From assembly GCA_000002445.1 (NCBI GenBank), contig CH464491.1, positions 2,400,001 through 2,464,000 on the forward strand: 64,000 nucleotides of DNA, in the 5' to 3' direction. Of this stretch, positions 6,301 to 25,639 are shown piece by piece. Source of the DNA: Trypanosoma brucei (lineage: Eukaryota). The notes beneath the pieces were generated by a model. The model was given only the letters and a program-made list of their open reading frames with translations, made no database searches and was not told where the DNA came from. The number at the start of each line of letters is the position of its first letter. Position 1 is the stretch's first letter. Made by a program: the position numbers and the translations under genes.

Positions 6301-7057
6301 TTCACTGGAGGAAAGACCGTTTCCCGTGTTTTTTGACGACACCGACCGGGCAATTGTAATGGGTGAGATTGACTTGCCGCTGGTGGGCCCGCCTCCGCAT
6401 CTTGTTCAGCCTCTTTTCGAGAAGAGAGATCACTATAAGTCACTTTCGGAGCTCGAGAAAACTCTGCTCCGGGAGCCGCATGAGCTAGTATATGGCATGT
6501 TGGGGCCACTGAACGCGGAGAGAATCCACGGTACTGGGCGTCTTTGTGTGGTTACAACTTGCATTTTAGTTTTTGCTCGCGTTGCCTGTTTAGGTGGCGC
6601 TGGTGCCGTCCGCGGTGTGCTGGAAAAGCTAAAGCCGCTGGCGCGGGTAGGCTATGAGAAGTGGAAAAAGGAACGAGAAGCCCTTGGTCGAGGTGTGAAA
6701 AAAAGGAGGCGTGGCGACAGGTGGGGCCCGGGAAGGTGCTTTAATGATGATCGTGCTGCTTCTGATGGTCAGTGCCACTGTAAGGCAGAGGATGGCCGCC
6801 TCCGATGCTCTGCATTTCTACTACACGGCCACTGTAAGCCACTTGGCGCTGTTGAGTTGTACTACAGGTGCTATGGTGGGTGCTTTTTCCGAAACATGTT
6901 CCGACTTCTTTGCTTCTGGGTGGGGCACTACGGGGCATGCCAGCGCTACGTGGAGACGCTATTTTACTGCACCGAAGTGCCATTCGCCGAGTTGAAGAGT
7001 GTAATGTTGTATCTGTTCCGGCTGTTGCCTGATTACTTTCTTCCGGACATGGCGTGA
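3320..7057 (+). CDS. Large hypothetical protein (about 1246 aa) with an internal acidic Ser/Asp/Glu-rich segment; no domain recognised
   Basis: A 1293-aa uninterrupted + strand ORF runs 3176..7057. Its first 48 codons overlap a T-rich/polypyrimidine tract (3228..3300). The first ATG after that tract and an AG dinucleotide is at 3320 (MSAFEFLRG...), so I take 3320 as the more likely start. Codon usage is consistent with neighbouring genes. Confidence 0.55.
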   Translation: MSAFEFLRGKLGGKVPVRLDCVPPWTQCSSGGKVEEADWQSALDALSAGQLFLLRGIMSEWRSGNLVQVNRYLQGCTAYFDPSKPHLLAYFVGLGGIDLFVTLLCDVNVPNGATDSSPQAPFRADSQDTTPFHLVGAIDLMLRVLTELMVCHNELGWYYYDRYPGLFFRLLELANVPELRLVSLMMLEHLLLCVGPVLEISKVPALQKLIRVGDDVVLAVICRVVSLLIVPGVVLDQRESVPHRLLFPETLLPLQRIQRVIDSNVLWLIGEKGLVQRLVALCEVTEPNSFRMALGSENLSNSLAGYSFPVLLPNEARAATPITTRGLDVNGLTEYGLGDPNVLQPFVADGNGVDRGEGGRVRDYASSVGANPVSPTATLPVEVVDTLRAFLQPSLGVSAALYQDDDGASEISVETTGSGIDFSWFVGCVDAKQRWRLRDLTLCEELDDNRVLLCGFGPPSDKKAKESFEEKNRAFWNFLSPVMRVPLTLHNRYAIVGAQSEVIFVLNVMLSTFFVGDVWRTMKECKWIEVASKFYDRAFQPRGDSQVLSPYLEQWQHMQELRLLPRFLIPENGAGEARRAPKQRTIKRGYAAEKYHRNEDGVDDNSNSSDSEADSDDEREEGHLLSAMRPGEDKEAYRRPNSGHMNADSEEGIDEKTHHHEAETIRKLELLRGVLEFLNTQDRFECSMLQQGDILSQAAPLALKVAKMLANRSEDSCVETTACHALEGYLRCFSFGCVSRSSPNEPQTAIGDILMRSILEHRVYNATFVPGLSDSLTPSKRIESVFSLLGELVRYHYDNLMLLQEYVIGNVELSHLNDPAVTVSSHSRQLHVGSGQVEQLIRLPPLDREEHEPFVRVLLRRLRGYGCDTNLFMRSLLLSLTPGLRSKINYMWKPVTEATVDAGESLSSSSRIGDIVTGYAHRFSYITACSRRFVVVISEMQRMEKALGKAADAPTSTPDPTRALENARSSSFGHIAHLTLWDMLQLLLRSPHRFSLEERPFPVFFDDTDRAIVMGEIDLPLVGPPPHLVQPLFEKRDHYKSLSELEKTLLREPHELVYGMLGPLNAERIHGTGRLCVVTTCILVFARVACLGGAGAVRGVLEKLKPLARVGYEKWKKEREALGRGVKKRRRGDRWGPGRCFNDDRAASDGQCHCKAEDGRLRCSAFLLHGHCKPLGAVELYYRCYGGCFFRNMFRLLCFWVGHYGACQRYVETLFYCTEVPFAELKSVMLYLFRLLPDYFLPDMA

Positions 7058-13366: not shown

Positions 13367-14551
13367 GTGGGTAAAATGCTTGGAGCGAACCTTGGGATTA
13401 ACTTTCACACTGATGACGATCATGGTGATCATGGTGATCACGAGGGCCATGAGGGGCACGACATGGGGGGTTGCGCTCCAGCCGCAGGGTCGTACTCGAT
13501 GGGGCTTCACATTGCAGCCATTTTTATTCTCCTGATCGCGTCATTCCTTGGGACAGTTCTTCCCATTGCCGGGAACTATGTGCCACGATTCAAGCTGCCG
13601 CCGTTTCTTATTGTTGTTTCGAAGTGTATTTCCACAGGTGTTGTTATGTCAGTTGCCGTGTTAACACTGCTCAATCACAGCTTACACAGCTTCATGGAGA
13701 AGTGTATCCCACACGGGCTGAGTATGGAAGTGTACAGCGCTTTCGGCTTGCTGTTTATGCTGATCTCGGCTTTACTGATGCATTCATTCGACTCTGCCAT
13801 GGACCTCCTTCTTGAGGGTTGGGCGGTTCGTAAGGAAGAGGAGAAATTAGCCGACGGCGCACCGCAAGTGGCTGATAGTGTGCCGACGGCGGCGGCTCTT
13901 CCACCAACTCAATGCGGAATGAAGCGTTGCACGGCTCAACCAGGAGTATCATGTGAAACTAACGGCTGCTGCCAATCATCTCCGGGACCTGCGTACGGTG
14001 CTACCGGGTGCTGTGGAAGCCGTGGTGAAGCCGCTGCGCTGCTTACCGGTGCGCGGCGTGTTATGGCCCTAGCCTTAATGGAATTCGGTTTGGTGGTGCA
14101 CAGTATTTTTCTCGGTCTTTCCGTAGGTATTGCATCCGACTCGCGCACCAAAGTGCTGCTTGTGGCTCTTTCCTTCCATCAATTTTTTGAAGGCCTGGCT
14201 TTAGGGGCGCGGTTGGCGGAGGCGTCGCTGAAAGCCAAGTTGGAGTTATTTTTGGCCATCCTCTTTTCCATTTCTGTTCCTGTTGGTACGGCTATCGGTG
14301 CCGTTACCATGAGGGATGGCGGCAAAAGCATTACCGGCTCCAGTTACGTCACTATGAGCGCCATTGTCAATGCCATTGGTGCTGGTATTCTGCTTTACAT
14401 CGGTTTTGTCCTGCTTCTCGTTGATTTCCCAACGGATCTGCGCATATACGCGGGTGTCGGGACGCCGAATCGCTTTGTGAGACGCATTGCAATGTTTGTG
14501 GCCCTTTGGGTTGGCTTCGGTGTGATGGCGCTGCTGTCCAAGTGGCACTAG
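13367..14551 (+). CDS. ZIP-family (Zrt/Irt-like, SLC39) divalent-metal transporter, diverged leading paralogue of the array
   Basis: 394 aa with a His/Asp-rich N-terminus (HGDHGDHEGHEGHD) and multiple TM helices. The ZIP signature in the TM4-TM5 region is HSIFLGLSVGIA...HQFFEGLALGARL. It is roughly 65-70% identical to the downstream copies in conserved blocks, by eye. Confidence 0.85.
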   Translation: MGKMLGANLGINFHTDDDHGDHGDHEGHEGHDMGGCAPAAGSYSMGLHIAAIFILLIASFLGTVLPIAGNYVPRFKLPPFLIVVSKCISTGVVMSVAVLTLLNHSLHSFMEKCIPHGLSMEVYSAFGLLFMLISALLMHSFDSAMDLLLEGWAVRKEEEKLADGAPQVADSVPTAAALPPTQCGMKRCTAQPGVSCETNGCCQSSPGPAYGATGCCGSRGEAAALLTGARRVMALALMEFGLVVHSIFLGLSVGIASDSRTKVLLVALSFHQFFEGLALGARLAEASLKAKLELFLAILFSISVPVGTAIGAVTMRDGGKSITGSSYVTMSAIVNAIGAGILLYIGFVLLLVDFPTDLRIYAGVGTPNRFVRRIAMFVALWVGFGVMALLSKWH

Positions 14552-16333
14552 GTAACGTAACTTTTTATTTACATTAATTTTTTTTCTTCACTCCCCCTAA
14601 CTTTGAGGAGTTGAATATGTTCGCACGTGGGTTAACACGTAACAAATAGTATCGCACGGAAAATGAACTCTTTACCGCGTGAGAGGCGTGTCGTGCTGAA
14701 GCGGACGCATCAGAGAAGAGGAGTAAATAAGCGAGGGATTGAGGGATGTTATGCTCACACGCTGTGTTCTGAGAGGTGGGGGAGAAGGTACTGAATTGGC
14801 ACTAAAATAGCGACGATGCGAAACAAGTAAGAAAATGAATAAGCAAAAGTTTTATGGGCAACGATTTTGAGAAAAAAAAATCAATTGCACAAATAGGCGG
14901 TAACCTCTTTATAGCTCTATCTTTTGAAACCCTATTCGCTAGTTTAGCGTTGCGGGGAAGCCGTCGTACTGATCCTAATCTCCTCACTTCCCTTCCTTCC
15001 CCTTCTATTTGTTTTTATTTACAAAATGATGGAAAGCGGGATGATTTGTTGTTCCTGGTGTGTATTCCTTTTTATTACTTATAATGATATGTTCATCATT
15101 GCTGTTATTAATTCGTTTTTGGTGTCTTATGCTATTTTTACATTTAGGGACTCTCATTTTATTTTTATTTTTTTCGAAGGTGTGTGAGTAACAACACATA
15201 CACAACTCGAGGGACTGAAGCATATCGGCGGGTATTGTATCAAGAAAAATTTTAAATTATTAACAAGCACAACACATCAGTGATGGGTCAAATGCAACGA
15301 AATCAGCGTGAAGGGTGAAATAAATAAATGAATCAAGACCTGAAGAAAACGAAATAGAAAGAGAACAGAAAAGGCAACGAATAAAATGGTGGAATGGAGA
15401 GTGAAAGTAACTTTTACAGAAAGGGAGAAGGGGAAAAGAAGAGATTAATAAAATAGGAAAATGTCGGAGGGAATCGAAGTGGCAGCACCTGAAAGAGACA
15501 GTTTAATATTAGCAGGGAAATCATTACTCATCCAATTCGCAACTCATATTCACGTGGTGAAGTGAGGCCGCGGCTTTGTTGCTATTTCTCTTACTCTTTG
15601 TGTACGTGTGTGTTTATTTTCTACGGCGTCGTTACCGGGGTTAATATCCAAAAGAAGGACTTAGTTTAACGTCATTCTAACAGATAAGTGTAATATTTGG
15701 GAGGAGACATTCTCGTATGTATTTTTGTTTTCCCCCCTTTTTGGCGTTATTTGGTGTCCGCTTGTTGGAGATTTATGTTCCTCATACATTTTTTTTTTTC
15801 AAAAAAAGCCTCAACTTGATAAATGCTCGTCCACGTGTGCCCTCCTTTGCCTTGCCTTATTTTTAACATATCTTTTTCAGTTATTCTTTGAGGTAATCTT
15901 CACAAAGTGGCACAGCAACAAAAAAAGATATATATGTATATATATCTAGCAACTGCATGATAATATTTGACATTGAAAGGTTTCAACCATCCTCAAGAGT
16001 ATATCTTCATACTTTTCCTTCACCCTTAATAAAAATCTCTCACATCCCGCTCCCCCCCGTTCCAAGGAAGAAAAAATTACACAAACACAGACACATTTCT
16101 TCACACAGCACCTACAGTCAAATAATAACAGAGCGGGGAGCTTCTAAGCAAAAGGTCCGACCAAGAAACAACCACAAAAAAAAAGGATTAAGAAATCGAA
16201 AAAATTGAAAAACATATAACTATACGACCAATTTAAAAAAAATAATAATAATTAAATTATGTAATAATAATAAAAATATATAACAACGATTCAGAAATAA
16301 AGAAAAAATATATAAAAAGCAACCAAAAACCAG

Positions 16334-16525
16334 GCGGTCGCCAGTGCTGTGTGTGGTGGGATGCTGCTGTACCTTGCTTTCTGCCTCATGTTGAGTGACT
16401 TCCCATCGGATATGCAGAAACATGCTGGGAAGGATAAGGTAAGGCGTTTCTTCAGATGCTTTGGGATGTTTGCGGCTCTTTGGCTTGGCGCTGCGTTGAT
16501 GGCCGTGTTAGGAAAATGGGTCTAA
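16334..16525 (+). pseudogene. Orphan 3' fragment (last ~64 codons plus stop) of a ZIP transporter gene; array boundary relic
   Basis: Nucleotides 16334..16525 are essentially identical to the 3' ends of the downstream ZIP copies (for example 18606..18797) and encode ...QAVASAVCGGMLLYLAFCLMLSDFPSDMQKHAGKDKVRRFFRCFGMFAALWLGAALMAVLGKWV*. Upstream of 16334 the homology stops abruptly in A/T-rich low-complexity DNA. There is no start codon or N-terminal part. Confidence 0.65.
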
Positions 16526-17460
16526 GCACCCACTGTTCATGTGTGTGCCAATGGATTGCCCACTTCATTTTCTGTTTTCCTCGTACTCTTTTTCCAGCCC
16601 CCTTTTTCAGTTGTAATGATGCTCCCGCACGTGTGTTGCGTGGTCCGGTGAGCCATTGTGCCCTACCTGTTGCATGCGTTAGAGTTGTTCTTGAGGTGTG
16701 CTTGTGCATGTACATACATATATGTATATGTATATATACGTGTGTGTGTTTCTTGAGCTAGCGCCGAGTTGGGAGTGAGAGGAGTTGTGCTCTTCGTGTG
16801 TGCGTAGGTTTGAGCGTATGCGGACTGAGTGTCGGATGTTTAGCGGTGCGAAGCATAAGCAATTGCTCACGTGTTTGTATGCGTGTGTGTTGCGTACATG
16901 TTTCCAAACATCTACCCTGCCTTCAGGAGGGACCTGCACGAGTACATACATGAGCATATGTGCTGTGTTTACGCTTGTCCTTGATTTAGTTACAATATAC
17001 AACTGCGTACATCTACATTTTACTACTTTATGTTCGTTTGTTCATTTATTAGTATTTTTAAATAGCAATGCCCACCATCCTCGTAGTTACTCTACCGTGC
17101 TGGTGCGGGGGACGAAGCTGCAGACGCGTGGTGTACGAATATATGCATGCGTATGGATGTGTGTGCATGTGTTTCTGTGTGCGTCAATGCGCGTTTGAGT
17201 GTCTGCCTGCGCGTATATTTAAATAGTGATTTAGCGGATATCTGACTGTAGAGGGTACGACGGACGGGCTTATTTTCCACATGAGACTATTTCTTCCCCT
17301 GCTTTCTTTCTGTGCTGGTGCTGGTGCTGGTGTGTGTCTGTGTGTGCGCAGTTGTGGATGGGATGGTGGCAAATGTATCGCATTGCTGCTGTTCCCATCC
17401 CTTAGTGCCCCATTGTTTCTGCACGCTCTCGCTAAGCATTCCTTCTTACCCTTTTTGCCC

Positions 17461-17528
17461 ATTGATTCTTTTTCTATGTTTGCCGTCCCTTTTTCACCTT
17501 TTTCTTTTTGGTGTGTGTAGATACCATA
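17461..17528 (+). promoter_or_regulatory. Polypyrimidine tract plus AG: probable spliced-leader trans-splice acceptor region for the downstream ZIP copy (recurs before each array copy)
   Basis: A T/C-rich run (ttgattctttttctatgtttgccgtccctttttcacctttttctttttggtgtgtgtag) is followed by an AG about 85 nt upstream of ATG 17613. The same block recurs at 19733..19800, 21775..21852 and 23812..23889. In trypanosomatids such tracts direct trans-splicing (established knowledge). The exact acceptor is not determinable without RNA data. Confidence 0.5.
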
Positions 17529-17612
17529 AAGTGACAGTCAGGTTTCGGTTGGTGCTGCCTTAGCTAATCTCAGCAAAAACACACTTCCTCTTTTTGTGAT
17601 ACAGTCAGAGCG

Positions 17613-18797
17613 ATGGCTAACGTTAATAACGAGACCACCGAATGTGGTGCATTGCTTTCGAATATCACTTCCCTACAGACGACGCTAACGTCTATGGGAT
17701 GCCAAGTGCCCGCCTTGCATCATCACACGCATGACCACGGCCACCATCACCATCATCATCATCATGACGATCACACCCACGGAGCGGACGACCACGAAGG
17801 TCACGGGCACAGTCACGGCGGGTGCGAAAGTGGTCATGGCACGTATTCCATTGGACTGCATGTTGTGGCGATCTTTGTTGTGTTGATTGCGTCGTTTCTG
17901 GGCACGCTGATACCGATAATCGGAAAGTACGTGCCGGCACTGCGGCTTCCTCCGTTTGTGTTTGTCCTTGGCAAGTGCATTGCAGCTGGAGTGCTACTGT
18001 CAGTGTCGACTATCCACATGATTAATGAAGCTGTAGCGCAGCTACAGGAAGATTGTGTTCCGGAGTCGTTTCGCGAATCATATGAGGCATATGCATTTCT
18101 GTTTGCTGTGGCTGGAGCGTTGCTGTTGCACATGGTGGACGTCATTGTTGACGCACGTGTGACAAACAAGAGCGATTCCAGCACCAACAAACCTGAGGGT
18201 CAACCCGATGCCGAAGAAGCTCAAGCGGCCCCGGCTGCTCTTGATGCGTACGATGGTCATCACTGCCACTACGCTGTCGGCATGCCACAGTCGAGGACCA
18301 GACGCCTCGTCTCTGCAATGTTTATGGAGTTTGCGGTAACTGTGCACAGTGTGTTCATTGGGCTGGCAGTCGGTATCGCAAGGGATGCGGAGACTAAAAC
18401 TTTACTTGTGGCTCTGGCATTTCATCAGATGTTGGAGGGCCTTGCTCTGGGCGCGCGTCTGGTGGATGCAGAGTTGAGCTTGAAGCTTGAAATGCTGTTT
18501 GCACTACTCTTCTCTGTCTCTGCGCCCCTGGGCACCGCAATTGCCGTTGGCACGATTGCGATTTGGAATGTGTCGATGGTAGGAACCGCGTTCGTGATTA
18601 CACAGGCGGTCGCCAGTGCTGTGTGTGGTGGGATGCTGCTGTACCTTGCTTTCTGCCTCATGTTGAGTGACTTCCCATCGGATATGCAGAAACATGCTGG
18701 GAAGGATAAGGTAAGGCGTTTCTTCAGATGCTTTGGGATGTTTGCGGCTCTTTGGCTTGGCGCTGCGTTGATGGCCGTGTTAGGAAAATGGGTCTAA
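17613..18797 (+). CDS. ZIP-family metal transporter, array copy (long His-rich N-terminal segment)
   Basis: 394 aa. It has the ZIP signature HSVFIGLAVGIARDAETKTLLVALAFHQMLEGLALGARL and the N-terminal HHHTHDHGHHHHHHHHDDHTHGADDHEGHGHSHGG segment. The N-terminus also carries N-x-T/S sites (NETT, NIT), consistent with an extracellular N-terminus. Confidence 0.88.
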   Translation: MANVNNETTECGALLSNITSLQTTLTSMGCQVPALHHHTHDHGHHHHHHHHDDHTHGADDHEGHGHSHGGCESGHGTYSIGLHVVAIFVVLIASFLGTLIPIIGKYVPALRLPPFVFVLGKCIAAGVLLSVSTIHMINEAVAQLQEDCVPESFRESYEAYAFLFAVAGALLLHMVDVIVDARVTNKSDSSTNKPEGQPDAEEAQAAPAALDAYDGHHCHYAVGMPQSRTRRLVSAMFMEFAVTVHSVFIGLAVGIARDAETKTLLVALAFHQMLEGLALGARLVDAELSLKLEMLFALLFSVSAPLGTAIAVGTIAIWNVSMVGTAFVITQAVASAVCGGMLLYLAFCLMLSDFPSDMQKHAGKDKVRRFFRCFGMFAALWLGAALMAVLGKWV

Positions 18798-19884
18798 GCA
18801 CCCACTGTTCATGTGTGTGCCAATGGATTGCCCACTTCATTTTCTGTTTTCCTCGTACTCTTTTTCCAGCCCCCTTTTTCAGTTGTAATGATGCTCCCGC
18901 ACGTGTGTTGCGTGGTCCGGTGAGCCATTGTGCCCTACCTGTTGCATGCGTTAGAGTTGTTCTTGAGGTGTGCTTGTGCATGTACATACATATATGTATA
19001 TGTATATATACGTGTGTGTGTTTCTTGAGCTAGCGCCGAGTTGGGAGTGAGAGGAGTTGTGCTCTTCGTGTGTGCGTAGGTTTGAGCGTATGCGGACTGA
19101 GTGTCGGATGTTTAGCGGTGCGAAGCATAAGCAATTGCTCACGTGTTTGTATGCGTGTGTGTTGCGTACATGTTTCCAAACATCTACCCTGCCTTCAGGA
19201 GGGACCTGCACGAGTACATACATGAGCATATGTGCTGTGTTTACGCTTGTCCTTGATTTAGTTACAATATACAACTGCGTACATCTACATTTTACTACTT
19301 TATGTTCGTTTGTTCATTTATTAGTATTTTTAAATAGCAATGCCCACCATCCTCGTAGTTACTCTACCGTGCTGGTGCGGGGGACGAAGCTGCAGACGCG
19401 TGGTGTACGAATATATGCATGCGTATGGATGTGTGTGCATGTGTTTCTGTGTGCGTCAATGCGCGTTTGAGTGTCTGCCTGCGCGTATATTTAAATAGTG
19501 ATTTAGCGGATATCTGACTGTAGAGGGTACGACGGACGGGCTTATTTTCCACATGAGACTATTTCTTCCCCTGCTTTCTTTCTGTGCTGGTGCTGGTGCT
19601 GGTGTGTGTCTGTGTGTGCGCAGTTGTGGATGGGATGGTGGCAAATGTATCGCATTGCTGCTGTTCCCATCCCTTAGTGCCCCATTGTTTCTGCACGCTC
19701 TCGCTAAGCATTCCTTCTTACCCTTTTTGCCCATTGATTCTTTTTCTATGTTTGTCGTCCCTTTTTCACCTTTTTCTTTTTGGTGTGTGTAGATACCATA
19801 AAGTGACAGTCAGGTTTCGGTTGGTGCTGCCTTAGCTAATCTCAGCAAAAACACACTTCCTCTTTTTGTGATACAGTCAGAGCG

Positions 19885-21069
19885 ATGGCTAACGTTAATA
19901 ACGAGACCACCGAATGTGGTGCATTGCTTTCGAATATCACTTCCCTACAGACGACGCTAACGTCTATGGGATGCCAAGTGCCCGCCTTGCATCATCACAC
20001 GCATGACCACGGCCACCATCACCATCATCATCATCATGACGATCACACCCACGGAGCGGACGACCACGAAGGTCACGGGCACAGTCACGGCGGGTGTGAA
20101 AGTGGTCATGGCACGTATTCCATTGGACTGCATGTTGTGGCGATCTTTGTTGTGTTGATTGCGTCGTTTCTGGGCACGCTGATACCGATAATCGGAAAGT
20201 ACGTGCCGGCACTGCGGCTTCCTCCGTTTGTGTTTGTCCTTGGCAAGTGCATTGCAGCTGGAGTGCTACTGTCAGTGTCGACTATCCACATGATTAATGA
20301 AGCTGTAGCGCAGCTACAGGAAGATTGTGTTCCGGAGTCGTTTCGCGAATCATATGAGGCATATGCATTTCTGTTTGCTGTGGCTGGAGCGTTGCTGTTG
20401 CACATGGTGGACGTCATTGTTGACGCACGTGTGACAAACAAGAGCGATTCCAGCACCAACAAACCTGAGGGTCAACCCGATGCCGAAGAAGCTCAAGCGG
20501 CCCCGGCCGCTCTTGATGCGTACGATGGTCATCACTGCCACTACGCTGTCGGCATGCCACAGTCGAGGACCAGACGCCTCGTCTCTGCAATGTTTATGGA
20601 GTTTGCGGTAACTGTGCACAGTGTGTTCATTGGGCTGGCAGTCGGTATCGCAAGGGATGCGGAGACCAAAACTTTACTTGTGGCTCTGGTTTTTCATCAG
20701 ATGTTGGAGGGCCTTGCTCTGGGCGCGCGTCTGGTGGATGCAGAGTTGAGCTTGAAGCTTGAAATGCTGTTTGCACTACTCTTCTCTGTCTCTGCGCCCC
20801 TGGGCACCGCAATTGCCGTTGGCACGATTGCGATTTGGAATGTGTCGATGGTAGGAACCGCGTTCGTGATTACACAGGCGGTCACCAGTGCTGTGTGTGG
20901 TGGGATGCTGCTGTACCTTGCTTTCTGCCTCATGTTGAGTGACTTCCCATCGGATATGCAGAAACATGCTGGGAAGGATAAGGTAAGGCGTTTCTTCAGA
21001 TGCTTTGGGATGTTTGCGGCTCTTTGGTTTGGCGCTGCGTTAATGGCCTTTATCGGAAAGTGGATCTAA
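19885..21069 (+). CDS. ZIP-family metal transporter, array copy (mosaic: N-terminus as previous copy, C-terminus as following copies)
   Basis: 394 aa and more than 98% identical to 17613..18797. It differs at the C-terminus (WFGAALMAFIGKWI versus WLGAALMAVLGKWV), which matches copies 21955 and 23992 instead. Confidence 0.88.
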   Translation: MANVNNETTECGALLSNITSLQTTLTSMGCQVPALHHHTHDHGHHHHHHHHDDHTHGADDHEGHGHSHGGCESGHGTYSIGLHVVAIFVVLIASFLGTLIPIIGKYVPALRLPPFVFVLGKCIAAGVLLSVSTIHMINEAVAQLQEDCVPESFRESYEAYAFLFAVAGALLLHMVDVIVDARVTNKSDSSTNKPEGQPDAEEAQAAPAALDAYDGHHCHYAVGMPQSRTRRLVSAMFMEFAVTVHSVFIGLAVGIARDAETKTLLVALVFHQMLEGLALGARLVDAELSLKLEMLFALLFSVSAPLGTAIAVGTIAIWNVSMVGTAFVITQAVTSAVCGGMLLYLAFCLMLSDFPSDMQKHAGKDKVRRFFRCFGMFAALWFGAALMAFIGKWI

Positions 21070-21954
21070 GCACCCACTGTTCATGTGTGTGCCAATGGAT
21101 TGCCCACTTCATTTTCTGTTTTCCTCGTACTCTTTTTCCAGCCCCCTTTTTCAGTTGTAATGATGCTCCCGCACGTGTGTTGCGTGGTCCGGTGAGCCAT
21201 TGTGCCCTACCTGTTGCATGCGTTAGAGTTGTTCTTGAGGTGTGCTTGTGCATGTACATACATATATGTATATGTATATATACGTGTGTGTGCTTAGTAC
21301 ATGTTTCCAAACATCTACCCTGCCTTCAGGAGGGACCCGCACGAGTACATACATGAGCAAATGTGCTCCGTTTTTTTGTTTTATAACATACAACTGTACT
21401 ACAAAGTTCAACTCAGTATACCTAAATTTCAGTGTTTTTTTTATTGTCAACGTTTTTTTCTCGTTTTAGCAATGCCCACCATCCTCGTTGTTACTCTACC
21501 GTGCTGGTGCGGGGGACGAAGCTGCAGACGCGTGGTGTACGAATATATGCATGCGTATGGATGTGTGTGCATGTGTTTCTGTGTGCGTCAATGCGCGTTT
21601 GAGTGTCTGCCTGCGCGTATATTTAAATAGTGATTTAGCGGATATCTGACTGTAGAGGGTACGACGGACGGGCTTATTTTTTACATCATATTTGTAGTCG
21701 TTTTTGTCGTTTTTCAATTATTTTTTGTTTTTTAAAAATATTCTTACAACATTTGTGTCTATGTACGCTCTCGCTAAGCATTCCTTCTTACCCTTTTTGC
21801 CCATTGATTCTTTTTCTATGTTTGCCGTCCCTTTTTCACCTTTTTCTTTTTGGTGTGTGTAGATACCATAAAGTGACAGTCAGGTTTCGGTTGGTGCTGC
21901 CTTAGCTAATCTCAGCAAAAACACACTTCCTCTTTTTGTGATACAGTCAGAGCG

Positions 21955-23106
21955 ATGGCTAACGTTAATAACGAGACCACCGAATGTGGTGCATTGCTTT
22001 CGAATATCACTTCCCTACAGACGACGCTAACGTCTATGGGATGCCAAGTGCCCGTCTTGCATCATCATCATCGTGACAATCACACCCACGGAGTGGTCGA
22101 CGATGGAATTGATGGAGACACTCACGGCGGGTGTGAAAGTGGTCATGGCACGTATTCCATTGGACTGCATGTTGTGGCGATCTTTGTTGTGTTGATTGCG
22201 TCGTTTCTGGGCACGCTGATACCGATAATCGGAAAGTACGTGCCGGCACTGCGGCTTCCTCCGTTTGCGCTTGTCCTTGGCAAGTGCATTGCAGCTGGAG
22301 TGCTACTGTCAGTGTCGACTATCCACATGATTAATGAATCTATTTTACAGCTACAGGAAGATTGTGTTCCGGAGTCGTTTCGCGAATCATATGAGGCATA
22401 TGCATTTCTGTTTGCTGTGGCTGGAGCGTTGTTAATGCAGATGGTGGACGTAATTGTGGATAAATATGTGACAAATAAGAGCGATTCCAGCACCAACAAA
22501 CCTGAGGGTCAACCCGATGCCGAAGAAGCTCAAGCGGCCCCGGCTGCTCTTGATGCGTACGATGGTCATCACTGCCACTACGCTGTCGGCATGCCACAGT
22601 CGAGGACTAAACGTCTCGTCGCTGCAATGTTTATGGAGTTTGCGGTAACTGTGCACAGTGTGTTTGTCGGGCTGGCAGTCGGTATCGCAAGGGATGCGGA
22701 GACCAAAACTTTACTTGTGGCTCTGGTTTTTCATCAGATGTTGGAGGGCCTTGCTCTGGGTGCGCGTCTGGTGGATGCAGAGTTGAGCTTGAAGCTTGAA
22801 ATGCTGTTTGCACTACTCTTCTCTGTCTCTGCGCCCCTGGGCACCGCAATTGCCGTTGGCACGATTGCGATTTGGAATGTGTCGATGGTAGGAACCGCGT
22901 TCGTGATTACACAGGCGGTCACCAGTGCTGTGTGTGGTGGGATGCTGCTGTACCTTGCTTTCTGCCTCATGTTGAGTGACTTCCCATCGGATATGCAGAA
23001 ACATGCTGGGAAGGATAAGGTAAGGCGTTTCTTCAGATGCTTTGGGATGTTTGCGGCTCTTTGGTTTGGCGCTGCGTTAATGGCCTTTATCGGAAAGTGG
23101 ATCTAA
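21955..23106 (+). CDS. ZIP-family metal transporter, array copy (short His-rich N-terminal segment)
   Basis: 383 aa. The N-terminal metal-binding stretch is shortened to HHHHRDNHTHGVVDDGIDGDTHGG. The cytosolic loop variant is LLMQMVDVIVDKYVTNK. The rest is near-identical to the other copies. Confidence 0.88.
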   Translation: MANVNNETTECGALLSNITSLQTTLTSMGCQVPVLHHHHRDNHTHGVVDDGIDGDTHGGCESGHGTYSIGLHVVAIFVVLIASFLGTLIPIIGKYVPALRLPPFALVLGKCIAAGVLLSVSTIHMINESILQLQEDCVPESFRESYEAYAFLFAVAGALLMQMVDVIVDKYVTNKSDSSTNKPEGQPDAEEAQAAPAALDAYDGHHCHYAVGMPQSRTKRLVAAMFMEFAVTVHSVFVGLAVGIARDAETKTLLVALVFHQMLEGLALGARLVDAELSLKLEMLFALLFSVSAPLGTAIAVGTIAIWNVSMVGTAFVITQAVTSAVCGGMLLYLAFCLMLSDFPSDMQKHAGKDKVRRFFRCFGMFAALWFGAALMAFIGKWI

Positions 23107-23991
23107 GCACCCACTGTTCATGTGTGTGCCAATGGATTGCCCACTTCATTTTCTGTTTTCCTCGTACTCTTTTTCCAGCCCCCTTTTTCAGTTGTAATGA
23201 TGCTCCCGCACGTGTGTTGCGTGGTCCGGTGAGCCATTGTGCCCTACCTGTTGCATGCGTTAGAGTTGTTCTTGAGGTGTGCTTGTGCATGTACATACAT
23301 ATATGTATATGTATATATACGTGTGTGTGCTTAGTACATGTTTCCAAACATCTACCCTGCCTTCAGGAGGGACCTGCACGAGTACATACATGAGCAAATG
23401 TGCTCCGTTTTTTTGTTTTATAACATACAACTGTACTACAAAGTTCAACTCAGTATACCTAAATTTCAGTGTTTTTTTTATTGTCAACGTTTTTTTCTCG
23501 TTTTAGTAATGCCCACCATCCTCGTTGTTACTCTACCGTGCTGGTGCGGGGGACGAAGCTGCAGACGCGTGGTGTACGAATATATGCATGCGTATGGATG
23601 TGTGTGCATGTGTTTCTGTGTGCGTCAATGCGCGTTTGAGTGTCTGCCTGCGCGTATATTTAAATAGTGATTTAGCGGATATCTGACTGTAGAGGGTACG
23701 ACGGACGGGCTTATTTTTTACATCATATTTGTAGTCGTTTTTGTCGTTTTTCAATTATTTTTTGTTTTTTAAAAATATTCTTACAACATTTGTGTCTATG
23801 TACGCTCTCGCTAAGCATTCCTTCTTACCCTTTTTGCCCATTGATTCTTTTTCTATGTTTGCCGTCCCTTTTTCACCTTTTTCTTTTTGGTGTGTGTAGA
23901 TACCATAAAGTGACAGTCAGGTTTCGGTTGGTGCTGCCTTAGCTAATCTCAGCAAAAACACACTTCCTCTTTTTGTGATACAGTCAGAGCG

Positions 23992-25155
23992 ATGGCTAAC
24001 GTTAATAACGAGACCACCGAATGTGGTGCATTGCTTTCGAATATCACTTCCCTACAGACGACGCTAACGTCTATGGGATGCCAAGTGCCCGCCTTGCATC
24101 ATCATCATCGTGACAATCACACCCACGGAGTGGTCGACGATGGAATTGATGGAGACACTCACGGCGGGTGTGAAAGTGGTCATGGCACGTATTCCATTGG
24201 ACTGCATGTTGTGGCGATCTTTGTTGTGTTGATTGCGTCGTTTCTGGGCACGCTGATACCGATAATCGGAAAGTACGTGCCGGCACTGCGGCTTCCTCCG
24301 TTTGCGCTTGTCCTTGGCAAGTGCATTGCAGCTGGAGTGCTACTGTCAGTGTCGACGATCCACATGATTAATGAATCTATTTTACAGCTACAGGAAGATT
24401 GTGTTCCGGAGTCGTTTCGCGAATCATATGAGGCATATGCATTTCTGTTTGCTGTGGCTGGAGCGTTGCTGTTGCACATGGTGGACGTCCTTTCTGGTTT
24501 TTGTGTTCGTCGGGATGAAATGGTTTATAGTGATACTTCGGCAGTTGTTCCGCATGAGGTTATCGATGCCGAAGAAGCTCAAGCGGCCCCGGCTGCTCTT
24601 GATGCGTACGATGGTCATCACTGCCACTACGCTGTCGGCATGCCACAGTCGAGGACTAAACGTCTTTTTTCTGCAATGTTTATGGAGTTTGCGGTAACTG
24701 TGCACAGTGTGTTTGTCGGGCTGGCAGTCGGTATCGCAAGGGATGCGGAGACCAAAACTTTACTTGTGGCTCTGGTTTTTCATCAGATGTTGGAGGGCCT
24801 TGCTCTGGGCGCGCGTCTGGTGGATGCAGAGTTGAGCTTGAAGCTTGAAATGCTGTTTGCACTACTCTTCTCTGTCTCTGCGCCCCTGGGCACCGCAATT
24901 GCCGTTGGCACGATTGCGATTTGGAATGTGTCGATGGTAGGAACCGCGTTCGTGATTACACAGGCGGTCACCAGTGCTGTGTGTGGTGGGATGCTGCTGT
25001 ACCTTGCTTTCTGCCTCATGTTGAGTGACTTCCCATCGGATATGCAGAAACATGCTGGGAAGGATAAGGTAAGACGTTTCTTCAGATGCTTTGGGATGTT
25101 TGCGGCTCTTTGGCTTGGCGCTGCGTTAATGGCCTTTATTGGAAAATGGATCTAA
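23992..25155 (+). CDS. ZIP-family metal transporter, terminal array copy with replaced cytosolic-loop segment
   Basis: 387 aa, with the same short His segment as 21955. Nucleotides 24489..24564 (76 nt) replace the 64-nt segment of the other copies in frame, giving LSGFCVRRDEMVYSDTSAVVPHEV instead of IVDxxVTNKSDSSTNKPEGQP. The reading frame is maintained. Confidence 0.85.
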   Translation: MANVNNETTECGALLSNITSLQTTLTSMGCQVPALHHHHRDNHTHGVVDDGIDGDTHGGCESGHGTYSIGLHVVAIFVVLIASFLGTLIPIIGKYVPALRLPPFALVLGKCIAAGVLLSVSTIHMINESILQLQEDCVPESFRESYEAYAFLFAVAGALLLHMVDVLSGFCVRRDEMVYSDTSAVVPHEVIDAEEAQAAPAALDAYDGHHCHYAVGMPQSRTKRLFSAMFMEFAVTVHSVFVGLAVGIARDAETKTLLVALVFHQMLEGLALGARLVDAELSLKLEMLFALLFSVSAPLGTAIAVGTIAIWNVSMVGTAFVITQAVTSAVCGGMLLYLAFCLMLSDFPSDMQKHAGKDKVRRFFRCFGMFAALWLGAALMAFIGKWI

Positions 25156-25194
25156 ATCTAAATTGTTTTGTGAATTTGTGTATATTTTAAATTC

Positions 25195-25292
25195 CTGTTT
25201 TTTTCTTTGTCTTTTTCTTTGTCTTTTTCTATGTTGCTTTTTTTTTTTGTTTTTCTTTTTTGTTTTTTTTTTAATGTTAGGTTTTTTATTGT
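25195..25292 (+). promoter_or_regulatory. Long T-rich polypyrimidine tract upstream of PDCD5 start
   Basis: About 95 nt of T/C (ttcctgtttttttctttgtctttttctttgtctttttctatgttgctttttttttttgtttttcttttttgtttttttttt) lies immediately before the AG/ATG at 25298. It also serves as the poly(A)-site determinant for the upstream ZIP copy under the coupled processing model (established knowledge). Confidence 0.5.
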
Positions 25293-25297
25293 CCACT

Positions 25298-25639
25298 ATG
25301 TCCCGTGTCCCTATTAGCGAAGAACAGGCACAACAGTTGCTGATGAAGCAACAAGCGCAGGAGGAAAAGCAGGAAGCAATGAGAGAACAGAAAGAAAGTA
25401 TTTTGCGCGCCGTTGTGTCTGCTGAAGGAAGGGAACGCCTGACCCGACTGAGTCAGGTGAAAGCTGATCGTGCAACAGCTGTGGAATCTTATATCATACA
25501 AGCTGTTCGCCAAGGCAAGCTACAACCGCCCGTTTCTGATGAAATGGTGCGGGAAATTCTTGAACAAATGTCTTCTCAGTCAGCGGAATCCAAGAGCAAT
25601 ATTGTGTTTGCCCGGAAACGCATGGATGACGATTGGTGA
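25298..25639 (+). CDS. PDCD5: PDCD5/TFAR19-family small dsDNA-binding protein
   Basis: 113 aa (MSRVPISEEQAQQLLMKQQ...ILRAVVSAEGRERLTRLSQVKADRATAVESYIIQAVRQGKL...IVFARKRMDDDW). It aligns along its length with the PDCD5 consensus as I remember it ([41 protein letters not shown]...). The ORF-caller model at 25139 starts inside a T-rich polypyrimidine tract (25195..25290). I choose ATG 25298 after that tract. Confidence 0.7.
   Translation: MSRVPISEEQAQQLLMKQQAQEEKQEAMREQKESILRAVVSAEGRERLTRLSQVKADRATAVESYIIQAVRQGKLQPPVSDEMVREILEQMSSQSAESKSNIVFARKRMDDDW

What the first reader, a model, noticed from the sequence alone, without database searches (positions are those of the whole stretch)
22057..22140. 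Two alleles of the N-terminal His-rich metal-binding segment within the array
Copies 17613 and 19885 carry a 42-residue His-dominated stretch (HHHTHDHGHHHHHHHHDDHTHGADDHEGHGHSHGG; nt about 17718..17841 and 19990..20113). Copies 21955 and 23992 carry a 31-residue Asp/Gly-rich version with far fewer His residues (HHHHRDNHTHGVVDDGIDGDTHGG; nt 22057..22140 and 24094..24177). The rest of the proteins is more than 95% identical. His-rich extracellular or loop segments in ZIPs are implicated in metal capture and selectivity (established knowledge for the family). The array may therefore encode transporters with different affinity or selectivity from nearly identical genes. The difference lies in a histidine-codon repeat (cat/cac), so it could also be simple repeat slippage.
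Basis: seen in the sequence. Interest (0 to 1): 0.5.

Follow-up and report, generated by a model that had tools for sequence, protein, structure and literature searches.

The report
Two N-terminal tracts in TbZIP3 array
The four tandem zinc-transporter genes of Trypanosoma brucei (TbZIP3) really carry two versions of a disordered, histidine-rich outer segment, but this is one of several leftover patches of divergence between two repeat-unit types of a gene array that is otherwise kept uniform, and nothing here shows that the two versions work differently.

Summary
The window is T. brucei TREU927 chromosome 11. The genes are Tb927.11.9000-9030 (TbZIP3), a published zinc-importer array. Copies 1 and 2 carry a 35-residue tract with 19 His. 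Copies 3 and 4 carry a 24-residue tract with 7 His.

The difference has two parts:
- A 33-nt in-frame indel. It removes one unit of an imperfect 33-nt (11-codon) His-codon repeat, bounded by CATCATCA and CATGAC direct repeats.
- A dense patch of 12 substitutions in 30 nt (ADDHEGHGHS versus VVDDGIDGDT). Slippage cannot produce this.

The flanking sequence is identical. The patch is strictly two-state in 16 copies from four sources: TREU927, T. b. gambiense, T. b. equiperdum and one read-archive assembly. Tract length and patch are separable, and the 33-nt loss has happened at least twice.

The His island is one of about seven divergence islands, coding and non-coding, between two repeat-unit types. 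His-type genes lie 5' in the array and follow a 1087-nt spacer. Asp/Gly-type genes lie 3' and follow an 885-nt spacer.

The His form looks ancestral, because T. vivax, T. theileri and T. melophagium share HGHSHGGC. In the patch dN/dS is about 0.67 (9 non-synonymous, 3 synonymous differences), so positive selection is not shown. T. grayi and Leishmania lack the tract. Functional divergence remains an untested hypothesis.

The parts
13376..14551 (+). ZIP3a (Tb927.11.8990), the diverged 5' paralog. Its own N-terminal tract is HTDDDHGDHGDHEGHEGHDMGGC.
   Evidence: ORF; Pfam Zip 145 bits; 391-aa product called in gambiense; named ZIP3a in PMC13569496.
16331..16525 (+). 3' remnant of a ZIP3 gene (58 C-terminal codons). 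It marks the start of the repeated array.
   Evidence: 100% identical to 18603-18797; ORF fragment.
16526..17612 (+). L-type intergenic spacer (1087 nt, 9 GUGUGUG[UC] hits), upstream of His-type copy 1.
17613..18797 (+). ZIP3 copy 1 (Tb927.11.9000, EAN79853), His-type.
17718..17750 (+). The extra 33-nt unit (HHHTHDHGHHH) present only in the long form. It is the first unit of an imperfect 33-nt tandem repeat (19/33 identical to the next unit).
17784..17813 (+). His-type patch GCGGACGACCACGAAGGTCACGGGCACAGT (ADDHEGHGHS).
18798..19884 (+). L-type spacer (1087 nt): 3'UTR region of copy 1 and upstream region of copy 2.
19885..21069 (+). ZIP3 copy 2 (Tb927.11.9010, EAN79854). It has a His-type 5' two-thirds and a B-type 3' third, so it is the A/B junction gene. 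Its extra unit is at 19990-20022 and its His patch at 20056-20085.
21070..21954 (+). S-type spacer (885 nt, 5 GU-motif hits), upstream of Asp/Gly-type copy 3.
21955..23106 (+). ZIP3 copy 3 (Tb927.11.9020, EAN79855), Asp/Gly-type.
22060..22131 (+). Short tract HHHHRDNHTHGVVDDGIDGDTHGG of copy 3.
22093..22122 (+). Asp/Gly patch GTGGTCGACGATGGAATTGATGGAGACACT (VVDDGIDGDT).
23107..23991 (+). S-type spacer (885 nt), upstream of copy 4.
23992..25155 (+). ZIP3 copy 4 (Tb927.11.9030, EAN79856), Asp/Gly-type. Short tract at 24097-24168, patch at 24130-24159. It has its own cytosolic-loop island at about 24489-24563 and no GU-repeat motif downstream.

Best explanation
**What the genes are.** They form the TbZIP3 tandem array of T. 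brucei. These are 8-TM ZIP zinc importers. Their mRNA is destroyed under zinc sufficiency through GU repeats in the 3'UTR (literature).

**What the variable segment is.** It is a disordered linker rich in His, Asp and Gly. It sits between a short N-terminal helix and TM1. That helix carries N-x-T sequons and conserved Cys. The linker is therefore on the extracellular face, next to the mouth of the transport pathway (topology inferred from the family).

**How the two versions relate.** They belong to two repeat-unit types of the array.
- Type A is the L spacer plus a His-type 5' gene part. It sits at the 5' side of the array.
- Type B is the S spacer plus an Asp/Gly-type 5' gene part. It sits at the 3' side.

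**How they arose (inferred).**
- One 33-nt unit of an imperfect 11-codon His repeat was lost by slippage or unequal exchange between the CATCATCA or CATGAC direct repeats. This event is recurrent.
- The 30-nt patch is an older island of divergence. It carries both synonymous and non-synonymous changes. Gene conversion has not erased it, although it has made the flanks identical.

The His form is ancestral-like and the Asp/Gly form is derived.

**Likely consequence (inferred, untested).** The derived form has 12 fewer imidazole ligands, and three His are replaced by Asp at the transporter mouth. This would give a lower capacity to pre-concentrate Zn2+ and a weaker pH dependence. The TM4/TM5 transport site is unchanged. 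I therefore expect at most a modest kinetic tuning, and quite possibly near-neutral variation.
For: **Identity and family**
- Exact protein matches to EAN79853-56 of TREU927.
- The array is named TbZIP3. It responds to zinc and is controlled through its 3'UTR (PMC13569496).
- ZIP membership: Pfam; AlphaFold model with 8 TM helices and residues 31-69 at pLDDT below 50; the eight best PDB fold matches are BbZIP entries.

**Anatomy of the difference**
- The first 100 nt are identical. Then comes the 33-nt gap bounded by CATCATCA, followed by 14 substitutions in nt 152-200.
- The two 33-nt units are 19/33 identical.

**Recurrence and separability**
- The read-archive contig L003 has the junction CATCATCACACGCATGAC|GAT behind an L-type spacer. 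The other short forms have CATCATCATCATCATGAC|GAT behind S-type spacers.
- gambiense copy L001:8001 has an L spacer, the long tract and the Asp/Gly patch.

**Mosaic structure**
- Divergence between A and B units is confined to islands at 16926-17070, 17270-17420, 17720-17820, 18020-18070, 18120-18170, about 18270-18420 and 18770-18797. Hundreds of identical bases lie between them.
- The 16-copy matrix shows blocks exchanged between copies. For example, equiperdum 10001 and 12038 carry the Asp/Gly island in an otherwise A-type 5' 680 nt.

**Selection and polarity**
- Patch: Sd=3, Nd=9, pS 0.49, pN 0.38. The 5' 105 nt have pS 0.
- Polarity: HGHSHGGC occurs in T. vivax, T. theileri and T. melophagium.
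- The same tract is labile in other species.
- Concerted evolution of this array was described earlier (PMC1855330, PMC4413820).
Against: - The patch is perfectly conserved as two states in all 16 copies. Both states are kept in every assembled array, always in the same order. Selection for two isoforms would also produce this.
- Eight of ten codons in the patch change the amino acid, and three changes are His to Asp, which is a ligand-for-ligand change.
- No donor or intermediate for the patch was found, so its origin is not shown.
- The three subspecies are very closely related, so shared inheritance is weak evidence either way.
- The gambiense recombinant copy has two 1-nt deletions, and its upstream spacer contains an assembly gap (L001:6945-7044, about 1 kb 5' of the gene). 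It could be an assembly chimera.
Confidence: 0.65

Rival explanations
1. Functional specialisation. Selection keeps two ectodomain tracts because they give TbZIP3 isoforms different metal affinity, selectivity or pH behaviour. For example, the His-rich form would serve neutral blood and the carboxylate-rich form would serve acidic or other host niches.
For: - The patch is strictly two-state in 16 copies from four sources, and both states are present in each of the three assembled arrays.
- The island survives even where both flanks have been converted to the other type (equiperdum 10001 and 12038).
- There are three His-to-Asp replacements next to the pore mouth.
- The disordered His-rich loop in the ZIP4 ectodomain is a known feature of ZIPs (PMC4915132).
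Against: - dN/dS is below 1 on very few sites.
- Non-coding spacer islands are as sharp or sharper.
- The tract is absent in T. grayi and Leishmania relatives and varies freely in T. vivax and T. melophagium.
- Tract length and patch recombine.
- The published work treats the copies as one ZIP3 and reports no isoform differences.
Confidence: 0.2
2. Ectopic conversion or a template-switch mutation. The Asp/Gly patch was copied in one step from a diverged donor elsewhere in the genome, or was created by a complex multi-nucleotide repair event. On this reading it is not a relic of old paralog divergence.
For: There are 12 changes in 30 nt with perfectly identical flanks. Other islands in the array, such as the copy 4 loop with about 50 changes plus a 12-nt insertion, also look like replaced blocks.
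Against: - There is no match to the patch elsewhere in the 64-kb window with up to 3 mismatches, and no shared 11-mer.
- The patch does not resemble ZIP3a more than the His patch does.
- There is no reverse-complement relation beyond 7 nt.
- The rest of the genome could not be searched.
Confidence: 0.1
3. Pure repeat slippage in a cat/cac histidine-codon run explains the whole difference.
For: The 33-nt indel is bounded by direct repeats and has arisen with two different junctions. T. melophagium and T. vivax paralogs differ by repeat units.
Against: The 12-substitution patch and the R/N changes lie outside the indel and are base substitutions, not unit gains or losses.
Confidence: 0.03
4. Assembly artefact: the two forms come from mis-joined or collapsed repeats.
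For: Copies 1 and 2 are 100% identical over most of 2272 nt. The array is known to be under-assembled in the 927 reference: 5 genes against 16 in Lister 427.
Against: Both forms recur with identical sequence in three independent assemblies and in one read-archive contig.
Confidence: 0.02

Closest known systems
TbZIP3 array, Tb927.11.9000-9030 (with ZIP3a, Tb927.11.8990), T. brucei chromosome 11
   Same: It is this locus. The four proteins match EAN79853-56 exactly. The array is described as a zinc-responsive importer array regulated by ZNK1 through 3'UTR GU repeats (PMC13569496). It is also described as tandem array Tb113, the 'cation transporter' array with a divergent 5' copy (PMC1855330, PMC4413820).
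   Different: The papers I could search treat Tb927.11.9000-9030 as one ZIP3. In term searches of the main texts they do not mention the two N-terminal tracts, the A/B repeat-unit types or the two spacer forms. Supplementary files were not opened.
LiZIP3 of Leishmania infantum (syntenic ortholog, zinc importer)
   Same: Same ZIP subfamily and same locus context. Its mRNA is also down-regulated by zinc (as cited in PMC13569496).
   Different: Leishmania relatives lack the His-rich N-terminal tract. For example P0029 reads ...NVGETEHSLC before TM1. The tract is therefore not required for the basic activity of the family.
Histidine-rich loop of the ZIP4 extracellular domain (LIV-1 subfamily)
   Same: It is a disordered cluster of His on the extracellular side of a ZIP transporter (PMC4915132). 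It is the usual analogy for metal capture near the pore.
   Different: ZIP4 has a large folded ectodomain with a PAL motif, and the LIV-1 TM5 motif is HEXPHE (stated from my own knowledge). TbZIP3 has only an ~80-residue N-terminus and reads HQMLEG in TM5. This is an analogy, not membership.
Concerted evolution with mosaic islands in trypanosomatid tandem arrays (Jackson 2007, 2014)
   Same: Near-identical repeats, divergent copies at the array ends, remodelled spacers, and gene conversion as the homogenising force.
   Different: Here the internal copies also fall into two unit types with a fixed 5'-to-3' order. One retained island lies in a putative metal-binding tract.

Membership tests
ZIP (Zrt/Irt-like protein) transporters, Pfam PF02535 | Significant match to the family profile over the whole TM core | tested here: met
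   154-163 bits against a cut-off of 35.1, profile positions 2-322 of 323, for all four copies. ZIP3a scores 145 bits.
ZIP (Zrt/Irt-like protein) transporters, Pfam PF02535 | Eight-TM ZIP fold | tested here: met
   The AlphaFold model has mean pLDDT 76.7. Its helices correspond to 8 TMs. Disordered regions are residues 31-69 and 192-224. The top eight Foldseek PDB hits are all BbZIP entries (E 2e-5 to 4e-4, target TM-score 0.51-0.70). A sequence-only search of the PDB found nothing.
ZIP (Zrt/Irt-like protein) transporters, Pfam PF02535 | Conserved metal-site residues in TM4 (H-S/N-x-x-x-G) and TM5 (H-E/Q-x-x-E-G) | tested here: met
   HSVF(I/V)G at 245-250 and HQMLEG at 271-276 are invariant in all T. 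brucei copies. H245, S246, H271, Q272 and E275 are invariant across 24 homologs. The assignment of these motifs to the metal site is from established knowledge of the family.
ZIP (Zrt/Irt-like protein) transporters, Pfam PF02535 | Transports Zn2+ (or Fe2+/Mn2+) into the cytosol | not testable with these tools
   Only literature is available. ZIP3 knockdown reduces zinc availability, and znk1 nulls with about 9-fold more ZIP3 mRNA hold more zinc (PMC13569496). There are no isoform-specific data.
TbZIP3 array (Tb927.11.9000-9030) | Sequence identity and synteny with the published locus | tested here: met
   Exact matches to EAN79853-56 on the 5.26-Mb TREU927 contig. The same downstream neighbours (dsDNA_bind, BCCIP, DnaJ, DHHC) occur in gambiense and equiperdum.
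LIV-1 subfamily of ZIPs (ZIP4-like, with an extracellular His-rich loop) | HEXPHEXGD motif in TM5 and a large PAL-motif ectodomain | tested here: not met
   TM5 reads HQMLEGLALG. The N-terminus before TM1 is about 80 residues, consisting of one helix and a disordered tract. The defining motif is taken from established knowledge and PMC4915132.
Selected two-isoform system (functionally differentiated tandem paralogs in the sense of Jackson 2014) | Differentiated copies keep orthology across species | tested here: inconclusive
   Both forms are shared by brucei, gambiense and equiperdum, which are very close relatives. The T. congolense model is truncated before the tract. T. vivax, T. cruzi and T. 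melophagium have their own variants that are not orthologous to these.
Selected two-isoform system (functionally differentiated tandem paralogs in the sense of Jackson 2014) | Excess of non-synonymous over synonymous change in the differentiated segment | tested here: not met
   Patch Nd=9, Sd=3, dN 0.53, dS 0.78. The counts are too small to be decisive.

The most novel reading that the evidence does not exclude
T. brucei deliberately keeps a mixed array. His-rich and carboxylate-rich ectodomain tracts would give TbZIP3 isoforms different zinc-capture behaviour, such as pH dependence or metal preference. The two spacer/3'UTR types (9 versus 5 GU motifs, and none after the last gene) would couple each isoform to a different strength of zinc-dependent mRNA decay. 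The array would then be a graded, two-tier zinc-uptake system rather than simple gene dosage.
Probability: 0.12. Interest if true: 0.5.

Novelty: new member of a known kind. Interest (0 to 1): 0.25.

Why it matters
Zinc acquisition by African trypanosomes has only just been tied to this array. All functional work so far treats the copies as one gene. If the two ectodomain tracts, or the two linked 3'UTR types, behave differently, then reporter constructs, qPCR primers and knock-downs that lump the copies together would hide a layer of regulation. If they do not differ, the locus is a clean textbook example. It would show how concerted evolution leaves small islands of old divergence, and how His-codon repeats gain and lose units. 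That is useful as a caution against reading function into low-complexity differences between tandem paralogs.

Tried and rejected
- **Donor for the Asp/Gly patch.** I searched the window with the 30-mer at up to 3 mismatches and with all 10- to 12-mers on both strands. Only the two self matches appeared. ZIP3a is not closer to the Asp/Gly patch than to the His patch. A reverse-complement (template-switch) relation gave only 7 nt.
- **T. congolense as a test of age.** The only protein recovered (P0068, TCIL3000_11_9350) is a truncated, frameshifted model that starts after the tract. This is inconclusive.
- **Second protein-database search with the Asp/Gly N-terminal half.** It returned 5 proteins and no new T. 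brucei-clade variants.
- **Sequence-only search of the PDB.** No hit. The fold search was needed to place the protein.
- **dN/dS.** Computed, but the patch has only about 6 synonymous sites. I do not treat it as decisive in either direction.
- **Pure slippage and assembly artefact.** Both were considered and rejected (see the rival explanations).
- **Not done.** The profile search of 50%-identity representatives was not run, because close Trypanosoma orthologs would be hidden inside the T. brucei cluster. No search of bacterial or metagenome collections was made, because they are irrelevant to a trypanosome locus.
Full report
**1. What is in the window**

ORF listing shows four near-identical genes on the + strand:
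- copy 1: 17613-18797 (394 aa)
- copy 2: 19885-21069 (394 aa)
- copy 3: 21955-23106 (383 aa)
- copy 4: 23992-25155 (387 aa)

A diverged paralog precedes them. Its ORF runs 13367-14551 and the likely ATG is at 13376. A 195-nt 3' gene remnant at 16331-16525 is 100% identical to the end of copy 1.

All the proteins match Pfam PF02535 (Zip) far above the curated cut-off. The four proteins match EAN79853-EAN79856 of Trypanosoma brucei brucei TREU927 exactly, on a 5.26-Mb contig. The locus is therefore Tb927.11.9000-9030, with Tb927.11.8990 upstream.

**2.

The variable tract runs from H36 up to and including GG before the invariant Cys (C71 in the long form).
- In copies 1 and 2 it is 35 residues with 19 His.
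- In copies 3 and 4 it is 24 residues with 7 His.

Outside the tract, identity is as follows:
- 94.4% for copy 1 versus copy 3
- 96.3% for copy 2 versus copy 3
- 89.9-92.4% for pairs that include copy 4

So 'more than 95%' is only approximately right.

The clustering of differences is far beyond chance. Of the 56 substitutions between copies 1 and 3, 14 fall in 49 nt (P about 7e-8, or 7e-5 after correction).

**3. Anatomy at the nucleotide level**

The first 100 nt of the four genes are identical. Two distinct things follow.

(a) A 33-nt in-frame indel (CATCATCACACGCATGACCACGGCCACCATCAC, encoding HHHTHDHGHHH).
- The long form reads as two imperfect 33-nt units, HHHTHDHGHHH and HHHHHDDHTHG. They are 19/33 identical. 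They share CATCATCA at the start and CATGAC at positions 13-18.
- Loss of one unit by slippage or unequal exchange gives the short form.

(b) A patch in which 12 of 30 nt differ.
- The His form is GCGGACGACCACGAAGGTCACGGGCACAGT (ADDHEGHGHS).
- The Asp/Gly form is GTGGTCGACGATGGAATTGATGGAGACACT (VVDDGIDGDT).
- TREU927 has two further changes just upstream, H to R and D to N.

These are base substitutions, so slippage cannot account for part (b). Three of the changes replace His by Asp.

**4. The His island is one of several, and the units come in two types**

I aligned a whole unit of each kind: spacer plus copy 1 against spacer plus copy 3. There are 159 substitutions and 247 gap columns. They are confined to islands separated by hundreds of identical bases.

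| Island | Type | Content |
|---|---|---|
| 16926-17070 | non-coding | 48 substitutions |
| 17270-17420 | non-coding | 51 substitutions |
| 17720-17820 | coding | the His segment |
| 18020-18070 | coding | AVA versus SIL |
| 18120-18170 | coding | LH/AR versus MQ/KY |
| about 18270-18420 | coding | scattered changes |
| 18770-18797 | coding | last 30 nt |

There are also 141-nt and 62-nt indels in the spacer.

The spacers are 1087 nt (L type, after the remnant and after copy 1) or 885 nt (S type, after copies 2 and 3).

His-type genes always follow an L spacer. Asp/Gly-type genes follow an S spacer in TREU927, gambiense DAL972 and equiperdum OVI.

Copy 2 is the junction gene. It is A-type up to about nt 783 of the CDS and B-type from about nt 806.

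**5. Other genomes**

I fetched three further sources:
- gambiense DAL972, L001, 4 copies
- equiperdum OVI, L002, 7 copies in the locus
- a read-archive contig, L003, run ERR7929162

In all 16 copies the patch is one of the same two sequences. The only differences are single synonymous changes. In all three assembled arrays the His-type block is 5' and the Asp/Gly block is 3'.

Tract length and patch are nevertheless separable.
- gambiense copy L001:8001 has an L spacer, the long tract and the Asp/Gly patch. The tract carries two 1-nt deletions, and the upstream spacer holds an N gap (6945-7044), so quality is doubtful.
- The read-archive copy has an L spacer and a short tract whose junction is CATCATCACACGCATGAC|GATCAC (HHHTHD|DHTHG). 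The other short forms have CATCATCATCATCATGAC|GATCAC.

So the 33-nt unit has been lost at least twice, at different points of the repeat.

equiperdum copies 10001 and 12038 carry the Asp/Gly island inside an otherwise A-type 5' 680 nt. This shows short conversion tracts on both sides of the island.

**6. Polarity and behaviour of the tract in other species**

- T. vivax (…GAHGHSHGGC), T. theileri and T. melophagium (…HGHSHGGC) share the end of the His-type patch. The His form is therefore ancestral-like and the Asp/Gly form is derived.
- T. grayi has no His tract (…PAMSRNALGGC). Neither do the Leishmania, Leptomonas or Phytomonas relatives.
- T. cruzi has a short Asp-rich version, DGDHDGDKDEHSHGDC. 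It shows point variation but no length variation among 370-aa paralogs.
- T. vivax paralogs carry two versions, HSHSHGHDHGEGEGEG and HSHSHSHGHGHDHDHGDGDGAG.
- T. melophagium paralogs differ by one HGHE unit.
- The T. congolense model is truncated before the tract.

The segment is thus a general hot spot of low-complexity variation in the genus, and the family core can do without it.

**7. Selection**

Nei-Gojobori counts for the 10-codon patch are Sd=3 and Nd=9 (pS 0.49, pN 0.38, dN/dS about 0.67). The 5' 105 nt have pS 0. The rest of the gene has pS 0.08.

The patch therefore looks old relative to its flanks, and not specifically enriched in amino-acid change. The numbers are too small to be decisive. 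The non-coding islands, which are at least as sharp, argue that such islands arise without protein-level selection.

**8. Structure and topology**

An AlphaFold model of copy 1 was built from a 24-sequence alignment. Mean pLDDT is 76.7 and pTM is 0.69.
- It gives a helix at residues 4-27 and a disordered stretch at 31-69, which contains the variable tract (residues 36-70).
- It gives eight TM helices: 80-106, 114-144, 157-189, 228-255, 258-285, 290-318, 325-362 and 369-393.
- The loop between TM3 and TM4 (residues 192-224) is disordered.

The eight best PDB fold matches are all the bacterial ZIP BbZIP.

In ZIPs both termini face outward (established knowledge of the family). The N-terminus has two N-x-T sequons (N6, N17). 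Cys11 and Cys30 are shared with T. cruzi, T. theileri and T. melophagium, and Cys71 is invariant in all 24 homologs. These features fit an extracellular location (inference).

The TM4 motif HSVF(I/V)G and the TM5 motif HQMLEG are identical in all copies.

**9. What is known about the locus**

The array is TbZIP3.
- Its mRNA rises more than 4-fold on zinc chelation.
- The 3'UTR confers zinc-dependent decay through GU-repeat motifs and the nuclear zinc-knuckle/PIN protein ZNK1.
- znk1 nulls accumulate ZIP3 mRNA and zinc.
- The array has 5 genes in the 927 reference but 16 in Lister 427 (PMC13569496).

Jackson listed it as array Tb113, with a divergent 5' copy. He used it as an example of structural differentiation at array ends under concerted evolution (PMC1855330, PMC4413820).

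In term searches of the main texts of these papers I found no mention of the two N-terminal tracts. Supplementary files were not opened.

**10. Verdict**

Its best explanation is evolutionary. The length difference is a recurrent loss of a repeat unit. The patch is an old island of divergence that survives between two repeat-unit types in a gene-converted array.

A plausible effect is fewer imidazole ligands and more carboxylates at the pore mouth. That would change zinc capture or its pH dependence. The idea is unsupported by any test available here, and the lability of the tract in relatives weakens it.

The system is a known one. The dimorphism is a small detail that I did not find described in the papers I searched. 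Interest is low to moderate.

Noticed in passing
window 16526-17612, 18798-19884 (L type) versus 21070-21954, 23107-23991 (S type): The intergenic spacers hold the zinc-responsive ZIP3 3'UTR and come in two forms, 1087 nt and 885 nt. They have 9 versus 5 matches to the published GUGUGUG(U/C) motif. They differ by 141-nt and 62-nt indels and by two highly diverged islands. Copy 1 therefore has a different 3'UTR from copies 2 and 3.
   Followed up: partly
window 23992-25155 and 25156-25300: The last gene (Tb927.11.9030) has its own diverged cytosolic-loop island at about 24489-24563 (LSGFCVRRDEMVYSDTSAVVPHEVI, +12 nt), conserved in gambiense and equiperdum. It has no GU motif downstream. A T-rich tract follows, and the next gene starts only about 143 nt after its stop. 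It probably escapes ZNK1 control.
   Followed up: partly
window 16331-16525: A 195-nt 3' fragment of a ZIP3 gene (58 codons) is identical to the end of copy 1. It follows an A-rich low-complexity stretch and marks the 5' edge of the repeated array.
   Followed up: partly
window 16331-18602 versus 18603-20874: Two successive 2272-nt units are essentially identical; the sampled 220-300-nt stretches are all 100% identical. This is either a very recent duplication or conversion, or a sign of repeat collapse in the 927 assembly. The literature says the array is 16 genes in Lister 427.
   Followed up: no
L001:8001-9183 (T. b. gambiense DAL972): This copy combines an L-type spacer, the long His tract (with two 1-nt deletions, annotated LOW QUALITY PROTEIN) and the Asp/Gly patch. 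It is either a natural A/B recombinant with the crossover between tract and patch, or an assembly chimera; there is a 100-N gap about 1 kb upstream, at 6945-7044.
   Followed up: partly
L003:283-1434 (read-archive run ERR7929162): A short-tract, Asp/Gly-patch gene lies behind an L-type spacer and has a different deletion junction (HHHTHD|DHTHG). This is evidence that the 33-nt unit was lost independently a second time.
   Followed up: partly
proteins P0003, P0070, P0072, P0076 versus P0077, P0083 (T. vivax); P0005 versus P0008, P0032 (T. melophagium): Other Trypanosoma species also carry two versions of the same N-terminal tract among paralogs. T. vivax has GE-repeat versus longer HS/HG/HD/GD-repeat versions. 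T. melophagium has one versus two HGHE units. These are not orthologous to the T. brucei forms.
   Followed up: partly
window 13376-14551: ZIP3a (Tb927.11.8990) has its own N-terminal tract, HTDDDHGDHGDHEGHEGHDMGGC. It also has a Cys-rich cytosolic loop (…CGMKRCTAQPGVSCETNGCCQSSPGPAYGATGCCGS…) that the ZIP3 copies lack.
   Followed up: no
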